A stretch of DNA of 41,900 nt from a virus (IMGVR_UViG_3300028960_000080:1-41900), one strand, 5' to 3'; counted from the first letter of the stretch, positions 3,106-18,088 are shown. Made by a program: numbers and translations. Notes: generated by a model from the sequence alone, not told the origin.

Positions 3106-3467
3106 TATGCTCCAGCCTCCGGTGCTTTTGGCATTACTGCCCAGTGAGTGATATTGACGTTTTCAAGGTCCCCGACCTGAAATGTCCACTGCCATTCTCC
3201 GGTTTCTTTTTGTCCCCTGGTGTACCAGAGAGAACGCCAGCCAATTAGCCAGCCTTCTCCGTTAGCATCGAATAACAAAACACTTTCATTTGCTGGTGGC
3301 AGTTCAGTTGACACTGGTATTACTTTGTTTTCCTGTGCTGCACATTTAGCTTCAAGCGCATCGAATTTACGCACCAGGTATTCAGCATCCGTTTCATTCA
3401 CTTTCAGATCTCGCGGTACACATTTCCCGCGAAGAAACCCTTCCATTTCGAAAACATTCATGCGCAT
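3105..3467 (-). CDS. Hypothetical early-left protein (120 aa)
   Basis: ORF in the leftward operon, overlapping the stop of the HD-domain gene; Trp-rich C-terminal half. Confidence 0.55.
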   Translation of the reverse strand: MRMNVFEMEGFLRGKCVPRDLKVNETDAEYLVRKFDALEAKCAAQENKVIPVSTELPPANESVLLFDANGEGWLIGWRSLWYTRGQKETGEWQWTFQVGDLENVNITHWAVMPKAPEAGA

Positions 3468-12168: not shown

Positions 12169-13164
12169 GTGACCGTGAGAGCACTACTGACCCCTGAAAT
12201 TGCCCCGCGTATGGGGATCGTATTGTTCAGACCAGGTTCAGAGCTGATGCCCCTGTTTATGCAGGGGCATGTCCTGCTGGAGCCTGAGCCGGAACGTTAT
12301 TCATCTTTCGCCAGTGGTGCCGTTCCGGCGGCATCACAACCGCTGGCGGATGATCCTGCCGTTCGGGCCGTGTTCCGCAATGAGGCAGTGATCCGTCGTG
12401 CTGGTGGCGTGGAATGTCTTGAAAGCTGGTTACTTCGTGAAAAAGGCTGCCAGTGGCCTCATTCCGACTGGCACAGCGAGAACATGACAACAATGCGACA
12501 CGCGCCGGGCGCAATCCGTCTGTGCTGGCACTGCGATAACCAGTTGCGCGATCAGTTCACGGAACGGCTGGAATCAATGGCAACGGATAACTGTGCCCGC
12601 TGGGTGTTGTCTGTTGTGCGTCTGGATCTCGGTTTTGATGACAGTCACGTTGTGACAATGCCGGAACTGTGCTGGTGGCTGATTCGTAATGATCTGGCGG
12701 ATGCCTTACCGGAAAGTGCAGCCCGTAAGGCACTGAGATTACCGAAGCCTGTTGTGCCGTCTGTCACCCGGGAAAGTGATCTTGTGCCTTCGGTTCCTGC
12801 CACCAGCATCATCCAGGATAAAGCGAAAAAGGTGCTGGCGCTGAAAGTGGATCCGGAGTCGCCGGAGTCTTTTATGTTACGCCCTAAACGTCGCCGCTGG
12901 GTTAACGAAAAGTACACGCGCTGGGTTAAGACGCAGCCGTGTGCATGTTGTGGAAAGCCTGCTGATGATCCCCACCACCTGATAGGTCACGGTCAGGGTG
13001 GAATGGGTACAAAAGCGCATGACCTCTTTGTGTTGCCTTTGTGCAGAAAGCATCACGACGAGCTGCATGCGGATACCGTGGCATTTGAAGAGAAGTATGG
13101 CTCCCAGCTGGAGCTGATATTTCGTTTTATCGACCGTGCGTTGGCAATTGGTGTGCTAGCCTGA
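12169..13164 (+). CDS. DUF968-like phage protein with C-terminal HNH/zinc-binding-like motif
   Basis: C-terminal CACCGKPADDPHHL...CRKHHDELH motif; lies between the KilA-N gene and Q; GTG start with adjacent GAGG. Confidence 0.55.
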   Translation: MTVRALLTPEIAPRMGIVLFRPGSELMPLFMQGHVLLEPEPERYSSFASGAVPAASQPLADDPAVRAVFRNEAVIRRAGGVECLESWLLREKGCQWPHSDWHSENMTTMRHAPGAIRLCWHCDNQLRDQFTERLESMATDNCARWVLSVVRLDLGFDDSHVVTMPELCWWLIRNDLADALPESAARKALRLPKPVVPSVTRESDLVPSVPATSIIQDKAKKVLALKVDPESPESFMLRPKRRRWVNEKYTRWVKTQPCACCGKPADDPHHLIGHGQGGMGTKAHDLFVLPLCRKHHDELHADTVAFEEKYGSQLELIFRFIDRALAIGVLA

Positions 13165-13181
13165 TTTGGTGGAGAAAGTTG

Positions 13182-13535
13182 ATGTGTGATATGTATGAAG
13201 TATTAGACCGTTGGGGAGCGTGGGCTGCGGCAGAGAACAGTGGTGTGGATTGGCAACCGGTAGCCGCTGGCTTCAAGGGGCTTTTACCTCATGGCAGAAA
13301 GTCCCGGATTCAGTGCGATGATGATGAAGGCATCATGATTGATGGCTGTGTCGCCCGCCTGCGGAAGTATAAACCAGAAGAATATGAGCTGATCATTGCT
13401 CATTTTGTGATTGGTATCTCATTACGCACCATTGCTAAGAAAAGAAAATGCTCTGATGGAGCAATTAGAAAAGAGCTTCAGGGAGCTATAGGGTTTATAT
13501 CAGGTATTCTATTATTGTTAGGCGAAGCCCTCTAG
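13182..13535 (+). CDS. Q: Late antiterminator Q (phage 82 / QuuD type)
   Basis: VLDRWGAWAA...AAGFKGL...RIQCDDD...GCVARLRK closely resembles DLP12 QuuD as I recall it; ATG at 13182 with GGAGA Shine-Dalgarno. Confidence 0.8.
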   Translation: MCDMYEVLDRWGAWAAAENSGVDWQPVAAGFKGLLPHGRKSRIQCDDDEGIMIDGCVARLRKYKPEEYELIIAHFVIGISLRTIAKKRKCSDGAIRKELQGAIGFISGILLLLGEAL

Positions 13536-13545
13536 GGCTCCGCTT
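13522..13545. terminator. Short hairpin between convergent Q and methyltransferase genes (possible bidirectional terminator)
   Basis: AGCCC-TCTA-GGGCT stem-loop followed by CCGCTTTTAAAG; weak stem. Confidence 0.3.
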
Positions 13546-14586
13546 TTAAAGTGATGCGATGATAGCCCTTCCAAGAGCTTCAGCCATCTTGGGAGGGACT
13601 GCATTCCCTATCTGTTTGGCTTTCGAGACTAAAGAGCCTGTGAAGGAATAGTCTAATGGGAAAGTCTGTAATAACGCAGCCTCTCTAACAGAAATAGCCC
13701 TATCTTGCTCTGGATGTCCGAAACGTCCATTCGAATAGCTTATACATCTAGTTGTTAATCCACTTGCTGGTTTGTCCCAAGAAAGCCGTCCATAAACATC
13801 AGTATGCCCTTTATATTTTTTATGGCATTTTAGTATAAGTTCTTCAGGCCAAGATTCTCTACCTTTTCCCTCAGGAGTCGCTTTAATACGTTTAATATTT
13901 AGATCAGATAGTTTGGCTGCTGTATGATCCATAACATCTTTATGAGTTTCACCGGCAGCAATAGGAGGTAATCCGCCGATCCAGTCTCTGACAGTTGCAT
14001 ACGGAGTTTTTAACCCATCATGAGTTTGTGATGGAAGCTTAATATTCGTGTGTTTTGACGCCAGTAAAACAAAACGTTCACGTGTTTGAGGAACCCCGAA
14101 CCACAACGCAGGAATCACACCAAAATCAACGTTGTAGTGATGATGTGCTAAAACCTCAAGAAATTTCTGGAAATTTCCATTGTTAATATCGACATTTTGG
14201 ATTCCTGGTACATTCTCTACCAGTACAAAGTCTGGCGTATAATAAGAGACAAACCGTGCAAACTCAGTAAGCAGATCTTTTCTCGGATCATCCTCGTTCC
14301 GTATTTTATTTTGTTTCGAGAATGGTTGACATGGAGCACAACCACAAAATAGGGTTAGAGCTTTGCTTTGTGTTGACGCACAAACCAGATGCTTAATTTC
14401 CTCAACGTGTGTATCTTTGATATCACCATTGATAAAATGTGCAAATGGATTATTCATTTTAAAGGTGTTAGCGGAATCTAGATCAATATCTAAACCGAAA
14501 ATAATTTCCATTCCCACCGCTTTTAGGCCTACACTGGTTCCGCCGCAGCCGGAAAAGAAATCGTAAACGTGTATCTTTTTAGCCAT
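13546..14586 (-). CDS. DNA cytosine-C5 methyltransferase (Dcm-like)
   Basis: Canonical C5-MTase motifs in order: I (DFFSGCGG), IV (GCAPCQPFS, catalytic Cys), VI (LVENV), VIII (QTRERFVLL); AT-rich by eye. Confidence 0.92.
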   Translation of the reverse strand: MAKKIHVYDFFSGCGGTSVGLKAVGMEIIFGLDIDLDSANTFKMNNPFAHFINGDIKDTHVEEIKHLVCASTQSKALTLFCGCAPCQPFSKQNKIRNEDDPRKDLLTEFARFVSYYTPDFVLVENVPGIQNVDINNGNFQKFLEVLAHHHYNVDFGVIPALWFGVPQTRERFVLLASKHTNIKLPSQTHDGLKTPYATVRDWIGGLPPIAAGETHKDVMDHTAAKLSDLNIKRIKATPEGKGRESWPEELILKCHKKYKGHTDVYGRLSWDKPASGLTTRCISYSNGRFGHPEQDRAISVREAALLQTFPLDYSFTGSLVSKAKQIGNAVPPKMAEALGRAIIASL

Positions 14587-14589
14587 TAT

Positions 14590-16380
14590 CTACCTCACTC
14601 TTGGTCTGATAGTATCATTATCTAAAAAGATTTGCAGCAACTCTCGAGTTTTTGTTAACACTTCATGATTATTTGGTATTTTATTAAGAATTCTGATTTG
14701 TGTTTCAAAGATATCGTCACTGGTAACGTTCTCCAACCCTGTGTCTAACTTACAAAGTTCTTTGGTGATTTCTTTAGCATCTTGAATGTTTTTGGGGATT
14801 TGATCTTTATATTCTTTATAATCACCATGAACATTCTCAATAAGAAATGCTTCAGGAGTATAAACAGGAAGAAAAGCAATTTTATCGTGGATGAAATCGA
14901 TAAAATTTCTTTGCATTGTGTATTTTTGATTGTTATTTGATGAGCCATTAGAACCATCACAACTAAATTTTATATCCTGATTGGTTATTTCTTTTATGAT
15001 GTTTTGAAGGTTTGTGTTTTGATTTTCTGGTATGGAATCAGAAGTTGGATAATCATCAGTTCTCGATTGGTCACCATCTAATAAGAAAATAACGTTTTTA
15101 ACATTGGCAACACATAAAGGCACAGCCAAAGTTTGAAGAATACTTCCCGCTCCTCCAGGAACATGTTTTACTTCGAAGGAGTTTAATAATGCTTCACCAC
15201 CCGCTTTAAGCGCCTTTTCTACAAACCTCTTCGCTAACCGATCTTCTACAATAACGGTTCTTTTATCAATGCGTTCACCAAGAATAAAGAAAGATTCTTC
15301 TGGACTGACATTTTGAAGAACATCAACCTTTCCTATTTTATCATTCAGACAGAATAATTTTATGGCATTTTTAGGCAAGTCTTTTACTATTGTTGATGAA
15401 TGTGTGGATATGACAATTTGATGTTTCTTTTTAAGTGCTTGTTCTGATAAAAATTCCATCAATTGACATTGAGCAGAAGGGTGAAGTGATACTTCAGGTT
15501 CATCTAGCAGAATTAAAGATGCATCAGGGCTATCCATTAGTTTATGCACTAATATAGATACAGCAAATTCCCCACTGCCTGCGAAAGCTTCAGAATATTT
15601 TAAGTTTTCTGATTGAAGAATAATTGTGGGAGCTTTGTCATTAGTGAATAAGCTATGTTCAATAAGGCGGATGCTTGTGTATTTGCGACCTAAAATCTTG
15701 CTGATTGCCTCTACCTTACTTTTTTCTAATAAAGTGTTAACAAATAGCTTGTCTTTTTTTCCTTTATGAGGTTGATATTTTTTAAGATCGTTATCTATAA
15801 TGTCTTTTAGCATCTGACTGCGTTTTCTAAGATAATCTTTCTTAGGGTATGTATGAAAATCAGAGTGATAAAAGAACTTATCAAATGCACTGATAGTTGC
15901 TCTGAAATCTAAATATATTACATTTTTGTCAATAGCTTTCCACCTGGTCCTTAGTTGATTGGTTGAGATTTTTGTACTAGGCATTGGAGCCATGTTGTCG
16001 GATTTTAATGGTCTGGATGGTTCCCAGTAATCAGGATCATTTTCTTTAGAGATTCGAGTTTTAATTACTTCAACAATTGAATCAGTAGCTTTGTCATAAT
16101 ATCCATAAATAAATCTAGAACGACCACCATCTTTAATCTCATCTACATCTGTAGAAAACCATAAGCTACCCAGAGAATAGTTGTTTGGAGAACCGAATAG
16201 GGCTCTTAAAACAGAACTTTTATTGGTTCCGTTTTGACCAACTAATGCTGTAATTGGATACTCAAAATCAATCTTGCTACCCTCTGCAAGGTTTTTAAAA
16301 AAAGGAAAACGAATATGTCTAATAAATGGCTCAATTTTAGACGATGCCATAATTTTCTTTAGTTTTAATTCTGTGCTCAT
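14590..16380 (-). CDS. ABC-type ATPase fused to a TOPRIM-like nuclease domain (OLD-family-like / fused PARIS-like), 596 aa
   Basis: Walker A (GQNGTNKSS), Walker B (LILLDEPEVSLHP), H-loop (ISTHS) in the N-terminal half; C-terminal TVIVED and FLLDGDQ fit the TOPRIM Glu and DxD motifs; 3-nt gap to the methyltransferase gene; start could instead be the ATG at 16350. Confidence 0.8.
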   Translation of the reverse strand: MSTELKLKKIMASSKIEPFIRHIRFPFFKNLAEGSKIDFEYPITALVGQNGTNKSSVLRALFGSPNNYSLGSLWFSTDVDEIKDGGRSRFIYGYYDKATDSIVEVIKTRISKENDPDYWEPSRPLKSDNMAPMPSTKISTNQLRTRWKAIDKNVIYLDFRATISAFDKFFYHSDFHTYPKKDYLRKRSQMLKDIIDNDLKKYQPHKGKKDKLFVNTLLEKSKVEAISKILGRKYTSIRLIEHSLFTNDKAPTIILQSENLKYSEAFAGSGEFAVSILVHKLMDSPDASLILLDEPEVSLHPSAQCQLMEFLSEQALKKKHQIVISTHSSTIVKDLPKNAIKLFCLNDKIGKVDVLQNVSPEESFFILGERIDKRTVIVEDRLAKRFVEKALKAGGEALLNSFEVKHVPGGAGSILQTLAVPLCVANVKNVIFLLDGDQSRTDDYPTSDSIPENQNTNLQNIIKEITNQDIKFSCDGSNGSSNNNQKYTMQRNFIDFIHDKIAFLPVYTPEAFLIENVHGDYKEYKDQIPKNIQDAKEITKELCKLDTGLENVTSDDIFETQIRILNKIPNNHEVLTKTRELLQIFLDNDTIRPRVR

Positions 16381-16411
16381 TTTTTATACTGAAATGGTTG
16401 CAAGGTAATGT

Positions 16412-16440
16412 ATTTTACGAAAATGCTAACGCGTACGCAA
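16412..16440 (-). promoter_or_regulatory. Candidate sigma-70 promoter for the Q-S cassette (TTGCGT - 17 nt - TAAAAT)
   Basis: Read on the minus strand: -35 at 16440..16435, -10 at 16417..16412, about 30 nt upstream of the ATG at 16380. Confidence 0.4.
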
Positions 16441-16485
16441 AAATCATTGTAATCTGTTAAGAGTGGTTACTTCGCCACACAGCTT

Positions 16486-16515
16486 AAACCCGCCGTCGAG
16501 CGGGTTTTGTCGTTT
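16486..16515 (+). terminator. tR'-like intrinsic terminator upstream of the lysis genes (end of a short late leader RNA)
   Basis: CCCGC-CGTCGA-GCGGG hairpin followed by TTTTGTCGTTTC on the plus strand; no upstream plus-strand gene nearby; position matches lambda pR'-6S-tR' architecture. Confidence 0.55.
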
Positions 16516-16659
16516 CTGGGGCTGGGGATTCGTTGGTCCTTGCCTATTCCGCAGTTATCCATTGGTTCGGCTTCTTTGACGTTTCCGCTTCTGATTTGCG
16601 GTACATGATGTTTCCTCAATTTGCACCTGCTGTATCAGCGAGGTGAGAGATAACTACAA

Positions 16660-16986
16660 ATGCCTCATAACCCAAATACCTGGCTGGAGTTGGTCCAGAG
16701 CTGGTGGCGTGGAGACACACCGCTGGGCGCAGTGATTATGTCGATTGTTATGGCTGGTTTACGTATCGCCTATTTTGGCGGTGGTGGCGGCTGGAAGCGA
16801 AAAACACTCGAAATTCTACTCTGTGGCGCTCTGACGCTGACTTTTGCATCCGCTCTTGAGTATGTCGGATGGCCTAAATCACTATCTGTTGCCATTGGTG
16901 GTGGGGTGGGGCTGATCGGTGTCGATGCTATTCGTGGGGCTGCAATGCGAGTAATCGGTAACAAATTTGGTGGCTCTAAGGAGTAA
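16660..16986 (+). CDS. Putative holin (108 aa)
   Basis: Small hydrophobic protein with Gly-rich membrane segments immediately upstream of the endolysin; not lambda S-like. Confidence 0.65.
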   Translation: MPHNPNTWLELVQSWWRGDTPLGAVIMSIVMAGLRIAYFGGGGGWKRKTLEILLCGALTLTFASALEYVGWPKSLSVAIGGGVGLIGVDAIRGAAMRVIGNKFGGSKE

Positions 16987-16989
16987 TTT

Positions 16990-17466
16990 ATGCAGGAACT
17001 AAATTCCCAGCGTAAAGCTTTCCTTGATATGGTGGCTTGGTCAGAAGGAACGGATAACGGACGACAACCGACACGTAACCACGGTTATGACGTTATTGTC
17101 GGTGGTGAACTCTTCACTGATTACTCCGATCACCCTCGCAAACTTGTCACGCTAAACCCGAAACTCAAGTCAACAGCCGCCGGACGTTACCAGCTTCTTT
17201 CACGCTGGTGGGATGCTTACCGTAAACAGCTTGGCCTGAAAGATTTTTCTCCAGAAAGCCAGGACGCTGTAGCTCTGCAGCAGATTAAAGAGCGTGGCGC
17301 TTTACCGATGATTGACCGTGGCAATATTCGTCAGGCAATCGACCGTTGCAGCAATATCTGGGCGTCATTACCTGGTGCAGGTTACGGTCAGTATGAACAT
17401 AAAATCGGTGACCTGATTGCACGGTTTGAAGAGGCTGGTGGGGTGATAAATGAAGTTGAGCTATAA
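16990..17466 (+). CDS. R: Endolysin, lambda R-type lytic transglycosylase
   Basis: Translation closely resembles lambda R over its length (e.g. QRKAFLDM.AWSEGTDNGRQ.TRNHGYDVIVGGELFTDYSDHPRKLVTLNPKLKST). Confidence 0.95.
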   Translation: MQELNSQRKAFLDMVAWSEGTDNGRQPTRNHGYDVIVGGELFTDYSDHPRKLVTLNPKLKSTAAGRYQLLSRWWDAYRKQLGLKDFSPESQDAVALQQIKERGALPMIDRGNIRQAIDRCSNIWASLPGAGYGQYEHKIGDLIARFEEAGGVINEVEL

Positions 17467-17842
17467 GCTGGTTATCGCTGCTTTCTTCGTTACTGTCATT
17501 GGTTCTTTCATCTGGTCAGCCAACCACTACTACAGCAAATATCAGTACGAAAAGAAACGTGCTGATGAGGCTGTACGAAATGCTGGATCAGCAACAGCCA
17601 TTACCAATAACGTCCTGCAATCACTGCAAATCGTCAATACAGTACTGGAGGCTAACCAGCATGCAAAACAGCAGATCGCACTGGAGTCACAAAGAACCCA
17701 GGAAGATATCAAAATGGCCGTTGCGGATGATGATTGTGCTTCACGTCTTGTGCCTGCTGCCGCTGCTGAGCGGTTGCGGAAGTATGCGGACAGTTTACGT
17801 GAACACTCCGACGGTACCACTGCCAGCCAGCCTGACGGCTGA
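17450..17842 (+). CDS. Spanin inner-membrane subunit (Rz-like)
   Basis: N-terminal transmembrane helix then coiled-coil-like region; overlaps the endolysin stop; contains the Rz1 start in +1 frame. Confidence 0.75.
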   Translation: MKLSYKLVIAAFFVTVIGSFIWSANHYYSKYQYEKKRADEAVRNAGSATAITNNVLQSLQIVNTVLEANQHAKQQIALESQRTQEDIKMAVADDDCASRLVPAAAAERLRKYADSLREHSDGTTASQPDG

Positions 17843-17996
17843 AACCCCTCAGCCTGATTTACCTGATCATTTTACGTGGGGCTCGAGCTTAGATCTGAAT
17901 GCCGCCTTGTTGTCTGCATTGGCGCAGTGTAATACCGATAAAGCTGACATCAGAAGGATTGAAGTTGAGCGTGGTCACATCATGCAAAAAAAATGA
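17727..17996 (+). CDS. Spanin outer-membrane lipoprotein subunit (Rz1-like), overlapped architecture
   Basis: Internal ATG of track ORF 17499..17996 gives MMIVLHVLCLLPLLSGC with lipobox LLSGC; Pro-rich mature part; starts inside Rz and extends past it. Confidence 0.7.
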   Translation: MMIVLHVLCLLPLLSGCGSMRTVYVNTPTVPLPASLTAETPQPDLPDHFTWGSSLDLNAALLSALAQCNTDKADIRRIEVERGHIMQKK

Positions 17997-18088
17997 TGTT
18001 CACTTTATTTTGTTCCTTGATTTGATATGTGATGACCCAATAGATACAAAGCACCTGATTTGGGTGATTTTTTTGAAGGACTATACAC

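What the first reader, a model, noticed from the sequence alone, without database searches (positions are those of the whole stretch)
16381..16659. Late-promoter region displaced about 2.8 kb from Q by the inserted cassette, with divergent promoter and tR'-like terminator
In lambda, Q acts at a site overlapping pR' immediately downstream of the Q gene. Here Q ends at 13535, but the only terminator consistent with a short late leader RNA (hairpin plus U-tract, 16486..16515, plus strand) lies just upstream of the holin, on the far side of the minus-strand cassette. The same interval carries the cassette's candidate promoter on the other strand (TTGCGT-17-TAAAAT). The cassette therefore appears to have inserted between Q and its target promoter, with cassette and late transcription diverging from one ~280-bp region; I could not identify a convincing pR' -35/-10.
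Basis: partly seen in the sequence, partly recalled or inferred. Interest (0 to 1): 0.4.

Follow-up and report, generated by a model that had tools for sequence, protein, structure and literature searches.

The report
Late promoter displaced by defence cassette
This 280-bp gap holds the prophage's late-gene promoter, the likely docking site for its Q antiterminator and a short-leader terminator, cut off from the Q gene by an inserted anti-phage defence cassette; the layout is real but common and already known from E. coli K-12 DLP12 and phage PA-2.

Summary
Window 16411-16515 is a compact late-regulatory module. It has an A-tract, a weak -35 (CTAACG 16426-31) and a palindromic block (core GCGTACGC 16431-38). 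It then has a -10 (TAATCT 16450-55), a start at about A16462, a lambda/phage-21-like pause element (TAAGAGTGG 16458-66) and a terminator (16486-16515).

The same module sits directly at the Q stop codon in phage 1720a-02 and in the Stx2a prophage Sp5. In Sp5, published dRNA-seq places the PR' start at the base equivalent to 16462.

In 136 related loci, 0.5-3.8 kb inserts separate Q from the module. They form 78 unrelated groups, and 75 are coded on the minus strand. Many inserts match defence-system models. K-12 DLP12 (quuD-nmpC-essD) has the same layout.

The palindrome co-varies perfectly with two residues in the helix-turn-helix of Q, so it is probably the Q-binding element.

The element is a new occupant of a known moron site, not a new kind of system. 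No transcript data exist for this locus.

The parts
13179..13535 (+). Q antiterminator gene (118 aa), Q21/Q933W family
   Evidence: PF06530 at E = 8.8e-44. A profile of relatives matches the PDB Q21 chains at E = 6.6e-9 over residues 8-86. The C-terminus is shorter than in relatives without a cassette.
13546..14586 (-). Cassette gene 2: C5 cytosine DNA methyltransferase
   Evidence: PF00145 at E = 3e-59. TIGR00675 dcm. PADLOC MTase_II and DruM-like models.
14590..16380 (-). Cassette gene 1: OLD-like ABC/AAA ATPase, named 'ATP-dependent nuclease' in RefSeq
   Evidence: Pfam AAA_15 and AAA_21. PADLOC HEC-04 at 2e-36 and ATPase-Toprim_I-B at 1e-24. RefSeq name. It lies 3 bp from the methyltransferase gene, so the two probably form an operon.
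16412..16440 (-). Leftward (cassette) promoter: -35 TTGCGT (16440->16435), 17-bp spacer, -10 TAAAAT (16417->16412); predicted start about 16405
   Evidence: Sequence. In modules of the same palindrome type, a TAnnnT hexamer lies 16-18 bp from TTGCGT in 40 of 57 independent flank groups, against about 6% expected.
16417..16423 (+). A-tract, at -45 to -39 relative to the start, in the position of a proximal UP-element subsite
   Evidence: A-rich in 71-100 of 111 unique modules at five of six positions (window 16417 and 16419-16422), although the flanking cassettes are unrelated; the sixth, 16418 (C in this window), is A in only 56. The UP-element role is inference.
16426..16431 (+). pR' -35-like hexamer CTAACG, with an 18-bp spacer to the -10
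   Evidence: Consensus YTAACG across modules. It is a weak match to TTGACA. The assignment is inference.
16428..16443 (+). Candidate Q-binding element: AACGCGTACGCAAAAA, with core palindrome GCGTACGC at 16431-16438
   Evidence: It lies between the -35 and -10, as the Q-binding element does in phage 21. The palindrome type co-varies with the Q subtype in about 170 loci. It also co-varies perfectly with two helix-turn-helix residues (L/K and G/K-R) among 98 unique Q proteins.
16450..16455 (+). pR' -10 hexamer TAATCT
   Evidence: Pattern T-A-n-n-n-T: T in 108, A in 111 and T in 111 of 111 unique modules from many genera, with variable middle bases. It lies 7 nt upstream of the start mapped in the Sp5 homologue.
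16462..16462 (+). Predicted late transcription start (A)
   Evidence: Homologous to the dRNA-seq PR' start of Sakai Sp5. Not measured in this locus.
16458..16474 (+). Nearly invariant start-proximal region TAAGAGTGGTTACTTCG: candidate sigma-dependent pause element (TAAGAG/AAGAGT-GG) and pause site (about 16473-74)
   Evidence: TAAGAGT is invariant or nearly so, and G16474 is invariant in 111 of 111 modules. It resembles the phage 21 pause element TAAGCT. It matches lambda pR' +1 to +18 in 13 of 18 columns. The pause function is inference.
16486..16515 (+). Intrinsic terminator of the short late leader (about 47-54 nt)
   Evidence: A terminator lies 45-69 nt after the predicted start in 111 of 124 unique modules, and three more have one at 85-99 nt. 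The phage 21 leader is about 50 nt.
16660..16986 (+). Lambda-family holin, first late gene downstream
   Evidence: PF05106 and TIGR01594.

Best explanation
Window 16411-16515 is the Q-dependent late regulatory module (pR', Q-binding site, pause region, proximal terminator) of a lambdoid prophage whose Q belongs to the Q21/Q933W family.

RNA polymerase with sigma-70 starts constitutively at about A16462 from the -10 TAATCT. Without Q it terminates at 16486-16515, giving a leader of about 50 nt. When Q is made, it binds the palindromic block between the -35 and -10, loads onto polymerase held at the start-proximal TAAGAGTGG region, and makes it read through into the holin and the other late genes.

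Ancestrally the module overlaps the 3' end of Q. Here, as in most relatives, a foreign low-GC cassette on the minus strand (OLD-like ATPase plus cytosine methyltransferase, probably anti-phage defence) occupies the Q/pR' junction. The cassette is transcribed leftward from a promoter whose -35 lies inside the Q-binding block. Q acts in trans, so the 2.9-kb separation does not impair late control.

Shown by computation or by published data on homologues: the identity and conservation of the module, the start site, the hotspot and the covariation. Inferred: Q binding to the palindrome, the pause, and activity of the leftward promoter.
For: - Family: Q is a PF06530 protein related to Q21.
- Reference architecture: the annotated phage 21 record shows a compact module of about 85 bp, in the order -35, Q-binding element, -10, start, pause element, then a terminator ending about 50 nt after the start.
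- Same module at the Q stop: phage 1720a-02 and Sakai Sp5.
- Same module beyond a minus-strand insert: SfII, K-12 DLP12 after nmpC and PA-2 after lc.
- Start site: the published PR' start and tR' 3' end of Sp5 are 257 nt apart. They map to the A homologous to 16462 and to the last U of the second terminator.
- Promoter: the -10 pattern TAnnnT is invariant in 111 unique modules.
- Terminator: present in 114 of 124 unique modules, within 45-69 nt of the predicted start in 111 of them.
- Q-binding element: the palindrome type co-varies with Q and with its helix-turn-helix residues.
- Hotspot: 27 of 106 loci are empty and 79 are occupied. Over both collections, 136 occupied loci fall into 78 groups, 75 of them coded on the minus strand. 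Of 20 representative insert proteins, 11 match PADLOC defence models.
- Leftward promoter: it recurs in 40 of 57 flank groups.
- Copy number: only one module copy is in the window.
Against: - No transcript, binding or antitermination data exist for this locus or for this Q subtype.
- The -35 is weak (3 of 6) with an 18-bp spacer, and 19 bp in the sister type.
- The candidate pause element straddles the predicted start (-4 to +5). In lambda and phage 21 it begins at +1 or +2. The pause would therefore occur with an RNA of only about 12-13 nt, which is untested.
- The Q-binding element is a palindrome, whereas the solved Q21 element is a direct repeat.
- Converting the published Sakai coordinates (NC_002695.1) to the held record (.2) uses a 142-bp shift. 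It rests partly on my memory of the stx2A position in version .1. It is corroborated because the mapped 3' end then falls on the last U of the terminator.
- Flank groups used for the leftward-promoter count are not fully independent by descent.
Confidence: 0.85

Rival explanations
1. The late promoter sits at or inside the 3' end of Q, and late transcription reads antisense through the 2.8-kb cassette. In this reading, 16486-16515 is only a downstream terminator or insulator.
For: This is the canonical lambda layout. In relatives without a cassette, the promoter does overlap the end of Q.
Against: Only 10 bp separate Q from the cassette. No promoter-like site lies in 13100-13600. The conserved block and the -10/pause motif occur once in the window, at 16428-16466. 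The C-terminus of Q here is replaced relative to relatives without a cassette, so the ancestral overlap sequence is gone.
Confidence: 0.03
2. The architecture copies phage 21 exactly. The true -10 would be the weaker upstream hexamer CATTGT (16445-50), and transcription would start at G16456/T16457. TAAGAG would then be a pause element at +2 to +7, giving a pause at +18 as in phage 21. The invariant TAATCT would serve some other role.
For: CATTGT to TAAGAG is 13 bp, the same as the -10-to-pause-element spacing in lambda and phage 21. An inverted repeat, GNTAAG (16456-61) with CTTANC (16483-88), shows some covariation and would be transcribed only from such a start.
Against: The key A of that hexamer is present in only 67 of 111 modules, and K-12 DLP12 lacks the hexamer. 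It has no -35 and no extended -10. The Sp5 dRNA-seq start maps to the A equivalent to 16462. Sp5 lacks the CTTA arm.
Confidence: 0.08
3. The palindromic block is not the Q-binding element. It would instead be a shared pair of -35 regions for the two divergent promoters, or an operator for another regulator, and Q would recognise something else in the module.
For: The half-sites double as -35-like hexamers on both strands: TTTACG on each strand in K-12, and TTGCGT leftward here. The Q21 element is a direct repeat, not a palindrome.
Against: The block type tracks the Q subtype perfectly across about 170 loci, even though unrelated cassettes lie between Q and the block. It also tracks two residues in the predicted helix-turn-helix of Q. 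The rest of the module does not vary with Q type.
Confidence: 0.12

Closest known systems
PR' of 933W-type Shiga-toxin phages (Sakai Sp5/Sp15; the PR'-tR' transcript is the precursor of the StxS small RNA, Sy et al. 2020, PMC7547250)
   Same: The DNA module is homologous: palindrome, TAnnnT -10, G-n-TAAGAGTGGTTAC, and a proximal GC hairpin with a U-tract. Q is from the same family. The promoter is described as constitutively active, with a dRNA-seq-mapped start.
   Different: In Sp5 the module overlaps the Q stop codon, and the moron (tRNAs, stx2AB) lies downstream of PR' on the plus strand. Here the moron lies upstream of pR' on the minus strand. The palindrome subtype also differs (ACGATCGT against GCGTACGC). 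The published tR' is a second hairpin at +258, which this window lacks.
E. coli K-12 DLP12 (qsr') quuD-nmpC-essD, and phage PA-2 Q-lc-S
   Same: The layout is the same: Q, then a minus-strand moron of about 2.9 kb (a porin gene), then this module, then the lysis genes. From memory, Rueggeberg et al. 2013 (Microbiology 159:691, listed as a reference) reported that DLP12 Q controls the essD lysis-cassette promoter.
   Different: The cargo is a porin gene rather than an ATPase-methyltransferase pair. The palindrome is TTTACGTACGTAAA. The leftward -10 at 17 bp is absent, and the porin genes seem to have their own promoter closer to the gene.
Phage 21 late regulatory cassette (Q21, Q-binding element, pause element, tR'; Yin et al. 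2019; annotated record OL657228)
   Same: The Q protein family is the same. The binding element lies between the -35 and -10. There is a TAAG-type start-proximal element. The leader is about 50 nt and ends in an intrinsic terminator.
   Different: There is no DNA homology. The Q21 element is two direct 8-bp repeats read by a helix-turn[loop]-helix, whereas here there is a short palindrome and an ordinary short turn. The spacing from the -10 to the pause element is 9 bp against 13 bp. Phage 21 has a consensus -35.
Lambda pR'-qut-6S RNA-tR'
   Same: The logic is the same: a constitutive promoter, a promoter-proximal pause and a terminated leader. The initial transcribed sequence is alike, AACGATGGGTTAATTCGC against AAGAGTGG-TTACTTCGC.
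   Different: Lambda Q belongs to an unrelated family (PF03589). Its leader is 194 nt. Its pause element starts at +1.
Defence hotspots of P2-like phages and P4-like satellites (Rousset et al. 2022, PMC9122126)
   Same: A fixed position between conserved phage genes holds many unrelated, low-GC defence cassettes.
   Different: The phage group and position differ. Here the hotspot is bounded by a regulatory element, pR', and the cargo has a nearly uniform orientation.

Membership tests
Q21/Q933W-family Q-dependent late regulatory cassette | Q protein of Pfam PF06530 | tested here: met
   E = 8.8e-44 with full-length coverage. A profile of relatives matches the PDB Q21 chains at E = 6.6e-9.
Q21/Q933W-family Q-dependent late regulatory cassette | Sigma-70 promoter (pR') upstream of the late (lysis) genes | tested here: met
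   The -10 pattern TAnnnT is invariant in 111 unique modules. The homologous Sp5 promoter has a dRNA-seq start at the equivalent base. The holin gene starts 198 nt downstream of the predicted start.
Q21/Q933W-family Q-dependent late regulatory cassette | Q-binding element next to the promoter and specific to the cognate Q | tested here: inconclusive
   The conserved block between the -35 and -10 co-varies perfectly with the Q subtype and with two helix-turn-helix residues. Binding itself cannot be tested with these tools.
Q21/Q933W-family Q-dependent late regulatory cassette | Q-binding element built as two direct 8-bp repeats, as solved for Q21 | tested here: not met
   The block is a palindrome in every subtype: GCGTACGC, GCGGWCCGC, TTTACGTACGTAAA, GGAATTCC and GTAATTAC.
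Q21/Q933W-family Q-dependent late regulatory cassette | Sigma-dependent pause element just downstream of the start | tested here: inconclusive
   The nearly invariant TAAGAGTGG resembles the pause elements of phage 21 and lambda, but it straddles the start at -4 to +5. Pausing was not measured.
Q21/Q933W-family Q-dependent late regulatory cassette | Intrinsic terminator closing a short leader | tested here: met
   A terminator is present in 114 of 124 unique modules, 45-69 nt from the start in 111 of them.
Q21/Q933W-family Q-dependent late regulatory cassette | pR' immediately downstream of the Q gene | tested here: not met
   The gap is 2.89 kb here. The feature is met in 27 of 106 related IMG/VR loci and in Sp5.
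Q21/Q933W-family Q-dependent late regulatory cassette | Q-dependent read-through of the terminator | not testable with these tools
   This needs in vivo or in vitro transcription.
Phage moron or defence hotspot | Variable, unrelated cargo at a fixed site between conserved flanks | tested here: met
   136 occupied loci fall into 78 k-mer groups between Q and the module. Empty sites also exist.
Phage moron or defence hotspot | Foreign base composition | tested here: met
   Insert GC is 0.29-0.45. In the window the cassette is 0.31-0.42 against 0.48-0.58 in the flanks.
Phage moron or defence hotspot | Own promoter and own terminator | tested here: inconclusive
   The promoter is supported by recurrence. 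Most relatives have a bidirectional terminator after the Q stop. The window has only a short hairpin at 13526-13539, with no U-tract on the minus strand.
Phage moron or defence hotspot | Cargo protects against phage | not testable with these tools
   PADLOC models match the window's two proteins and 11 of 20 representative proteins from other inserts. Function was not assayed.

The most novel reading that the evidence does not exclude
In this reading, the pR' module of this Q clade is a bidirectional switch that responds to Q and serves as a docking platform for defence cassettes. The palindromic Q-binding element overlaps the -35 of a conserved leftward promoter that expresses whatever cargo is inserted. 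In the lysogen, the cargo would compete with the constitutive pR' for polymerase. On induction, Q binding would both load onto rightward polymerase and shut off the leftward defence genes, sparing the phage's own late replication and packaging. The two helix-turn-helix residues (L/K and G/K-R) would form a simple recognition code for the Q-binding element, one that also governs Shiga-toxin phages.
Probability: 0.2. Interest if true: 0.55.

Novelty: new member of a known kind. Interest (0 to 1): 0.3.

Why it matters
It shows that late-gene control in this prophage is intact despite the 2.9-kb gap, and it places the promoter, start and terminator to within a few bases.

More broadly, the Q/pR' junction of this Q clade is a widespread, orientation-biased landing site for defence cassettes across Enterobacterales. 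The clade includes the Shiga-toxin phages.

The covariation between Q residues and the palindrome gives a directly testable hypothesis for how Q933W-type antiterminators choose their promoter. That choice matters for the control of Shiga-toxin expression.

Tried and rejected
- Rfam, at permissive thresholds on 16300-16750, found no family. In particular IsrK, the Gifsy-1 small RNA encoded immediately downstream of the Q-like gene antQ, did not match.
- Direct start-site or 3'-end data for the K-12 copy (predicted start 577,229) could not be found:
  - Thomason 2015 is not held.
  - The supplements of Adams 2021 have no entry for this region.
  - The supplements of Conway 2014 and Sy 2020 are not held.
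  - Text searches for the module sequence and for DLP12 literature found nothing useful.
- The promoter fragment used in a DLP12 reporter study starts inside nmpC. It refers to a different upstream promoter (RpoE-type, about 350 nt upstream of the module), so it does not calibrate pR'.
- An upstream -10 in the A-run (CAAAAA or AAAAAT) was rejected because the final T is present in only 24-38 of 111 modules.
- Reading TAATCT as the pause element rather than the promoter -10 was rejected, because no promoter is conserved upstream of it and the Sp5 start lies 7 nt downstream of it.
- A CRP site is annotated over the module in the 1986 PA-2 record. The conserved inverted repeat is GTGR-N8-YCAC, which does not have CRP spacing.
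- MAFFT gave an ungapped alignment that misplaces the 3' arm of the outer inverted repeat, so that test was done with a custom anchor instead.

Full report
**What is there**

The window is a lambdoid prophage of E. coli. Positions 13100-16700 are 99.6-99.7% identical over the full length to four complete E. coli genomes.

The ORF at 13179-13535 is a 118-aa Q antiterminator. It matches PF06530 at E = 8.8e-44. It is distantly related to the solved Q21 protein: E = 0.003 alone and 6.6e-9 with a profile of relatives, over residues 8-86. Yin et al. call this group the Q21/Q933W family.

Ten base pairs after the Q stop, a two-gene minus-strand cassette ends.
- The upstream gene is an OLD-like ATPase (14590-16380). 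It matches Pfam AAA_15 and AAA_21 and PADLOC HEC-04 and ATPase-Toprim_I-B.
- The downstream gene is a C5 cytosine methyltransferase (13546-14586).
- The cassette has GC of 0.31-0.42, against 0.48-0.58 around it.
- It occurs in only 8 of 5,426 complete E. coli genomes.

The interval 16381-16659 lies between the ATPase start codon and a lambda-family holin gene (16660-16986).

**Check of the observation**

The hairpin with U-tract at 16486-16515 is real. It is the strongest terminator-like site in 12500-18000. The leader folds well beyond shuffled controls, with z = -3.2.

The minus-strand TTGCGT-17-TAAAAT is present, as the complement of 16435-16440 and of 16412-16417. By consensus score alone it is unremarkable, since the scan found fewer promoter-like sites than shuffles give.

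**Identifying the late promoter by comparison**

The annotated phage 21 record shows what a Q21-family late module looks like. A -35 lies 6 bp after the Q stop. A 16-bp Q-binding element lies between the -35 and -10. The start is followed by the pause element TAAGCT, and the annotated terminator region ends about 50 nt after the start. The whole module is about 85 bp.

A block equivalent to window 16426-16508 follows the Q stop directly in phage 1720a-02. In Shigella phage SfII it lies beyond a different minus-strand two-gene insert.

An exact 25-mer from the block retrieved 120 IMG/VR contigs. A scan of one genome per species with a Q alignment retrieved 80 loci from many genera of Enterobacterales. 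A profile of the module found it downstream of Q in 63 of them.

Across 111 unique modules the upstream part has these features:
- an A-rich tract (window 16417-22);
- the hexamer YTAACG;
- a short palindrome followed by A(A/T)4;
- about six variable bases;
- T-A-n-n-n-T, with T in 108, A in 111 and T in 111 of 111;
- an invariant G, one variable base, and then a nearly invariant TAAGAGTGGT.

G16474 is also invariant. The pattern TAnnnT with free middle bases is the signature of a sigma-70 -10 element. In the window it is TAATCT (16450-55), which predicts a start at A16462.

An intrinsic terminator is present in 114 of 124 unique modules, within 45-69 nt of that start in 111 of them.

**Experimental anchor**

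The Stx2a prophage Sp5 of E. coli Sakai carries the same module, overlapping the Q933W stop codon.

Sy et al. (PMC7547250) mapped the PR' start by dRNA-seq and the tR' 3' end by Term-seq, 257 nt apart. In the held record, the A homologous to window 16462 lies exactly 257 nt upstream of the last U of the second terminator.

The coordinate shift this implies is 142 bp. It agrees with the stx2A position in the held version compared with the older-version position as I remember it.

The module is therefore the known PR' of 933W-type phages, and TAnnnT is its -10. A rival assignment that copies phage 21 spacing (-10 CATTGT, start at 16456) fits less well. Its key A is present in only 67 of 111 modules, and it is absent from K-12 DLP12.

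**Probable Q-binding element**

The palindrome between the -35 and -10 comes in discrete types: GCGTACGC here, GCGGWCCGC, TTTACGTACGTAAA or ACRATCGT, GGAATTCC and GTAATTAC. All are centred 15.5-16 bp upstream of the -10.

Type and Q subtype go together in about 170 loci, although unrelated inserts lie between the gene and the site. The three apparent exceptions in that table are Erwinia Q proteins whose best match was the other reference; they carry the L and G residues expected for their palindrome.

Among 98 unique Q proteins of the two large types, two alignment columns separate the types without exception:
- Leu against Lys, in ISLRT versus ISKRQ;
- Gly against Lys or Arg, in SDGAI versus SEKAI.

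Both lie in the predicted helix-turn-helix. I take this as good indirect evidence that the block is the Q-binding element.

It differs from the solved Q21 element, which is a direct repeat read by a helix-turn[loop]-helix. The profile match of these Q proteins to Q21 covers only residues 8-86 and stops at the start of this segment. By my own reading of the sequences, they have an ordinary short turn (KCSDG) where Q21 has a long loop.

**Pause region**

TAAGAGTGG resembles the phage 21 pause element TAAGCT-G. The sequence from AAGAGT onward matches lambda pR' +1 to +18 in 13 of 18 columns, including the TTCG at which lambda pauses.

The palindrome-to-TAAGAG distance is 13-15 bp, close to the 12 bp between the binding element and the pause element in phage 21.

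Unlike lambda and phage 21, the element straddles the start, at -4 to +5. A sigma-dependent pause would then fall at about 16473-74 with an RNA of only about 12-13 nt. This step is inference.

**The cassette site is a hotspot**

Among IMG/VR loci with a Q upstream, 27 of 106 have the Q stop 6-47 nt before the module and 79 have inserts of 0.5-3.8 kb.

Over both collections, 136 occupied loci fall into 78 unrelated groups with GC of 0.29-0.45. In 75 of the 78 groups the coding is on the minus strand.

Of 20 representative insert proteins, 11 match PADLOC defence or candidate-defence models. These include KwaB, PD-Lambda-5, PDC-S20, -S33, -S49, -S60 and -M53, an AriA/NsnB-like ATPase and a TIR effector.

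K-12 DLP12 has nmpC at this position, with the module about 170 bp upstream of essD. PA-2 has lc there. The layout is therefore classical, and the window adds a rare cargo.

In empty loci the Q ORF runs into the module, with the stop codon inside the palindrome or even at -3 to -1 relative to AAGAGT. In occupied loci, Q ends earlier, and a bidirectional terminator usually follows.

**The leftward promoter**

In modules with the GCGTACGC palindrome, a TAnnnT hexamer lies 16-18 bp (mostly 17) from TTGCGT on the minus strand in 40 of 57 flank groups. The expected rate is about 6%, taken from the same test run deeper in the cassettes.

The sister type GCGGWCCGC shows it in only 5 of 28 groups.

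Its -35 lies inside the putative Q-binding element, and its spacer covers the pR' -35. The two promoters should therefore be mutually exclusive, and Q binding could repress the leftward one. That last point is speculation.

**Verdict**

The element is a new member of a known kind. Confidence in the main reading is 0.85. The Q-binding assignment, the pause and the leftward promoter each stand at roughly 0.6. Interest is modest at 0.3.

Noticed in passing
window 16456-16461 and 16483-16488: An inverted repeat, GNTAAG with CTTANC, encloses the start-proximal region. The variable base pairs with its partner in 54 of 76 unique modules, against 31.6 expected, and one locus (L134) has a double change, TTAGG with CCTAA. 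Sixteen further cases are A-C or C-A, which would be G-U pairs only on the minus strand. The 5' arm lies upstream of the mapped start, so an RNA helix in the pR' leader cannot explain it. Sp5 lacks the 3' arm. This remains unexplained.
   Followed up: partly
window 13546-16380; related loci L003-L205: The Q/pR' junction of this Q clade is a hotspot for defence systems across Enterobacterales. It holds 78 unrelated insert groups, 75 of them on the minus strand. The cargo includes Kiwa (KwaB), PD-Lambda-5, several PADLOC candidate systems, TIR and OLD/AriA-like ATPases, and the porins nmpC and lc. I found no paper in the held library describing this hotspot.
   Followed up: partly
L208 1070-1095 (Sakai Sp5): The Stx2a phage PR' module carries its own canonical terminator, AACCCGCCGATGCGCGGGTTTTTTT, about 25-50 nt after the mapped start. 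The published tR' is the second hairpin at +258. A PR' RNA of about 50 nt may have been missed, or this hairpin may leak.
   Followed up: no
window 13526-13539: The short inverted repeat AGCCCT-CT-AGGGCT contains the Q stop codon (TAG, 13533-35) at the convergent ends of Q and the methyltransferase gene. SfII has a similar repeat. Most other occupied loci have a clear bidirectional terminator here, with an A-run, a GC hairpin and a T-run.
   Followed up: partly
window 13500-13535: The C-terminus of Q (…GILLLLGEAL) is shorter than, and unrelated to, the …GCLSVLGVRLEMDDW… tail of relatives without a cassette. This suggests the insert junction lies inside the ancestral 3' end of Q.
   Followed up: partly
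window 16508: In 4 of the 8 genomes that share the cassette, homology stops exactly at the terminator stem (query position 3409). Modules elsewhere are joined to at least three different downstream sequences. The terminator is therefore a mosaic boundary between the regulatory module and the lysis modules.
   Followed up: partly
L207 1531-1551 (phage PA-2, J02580): The 1986 PA-2 record annotates a CRP-binding site over what is the start-proximal region of pR' (GTGG-N8-CCAC). The spacing does not fit CRP, so the annotation is probably a misreading of the module.
   Followed up: partly
L206 (phage 434 isolate 434B, OL657227): This 434 isolate carries the DLP12-type nmpC::IS5 region and the same module upstream of a phage 21-type pinholin. 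It looks like a recombinant with the K-12 DLP12 prophage.
   Followed up: no
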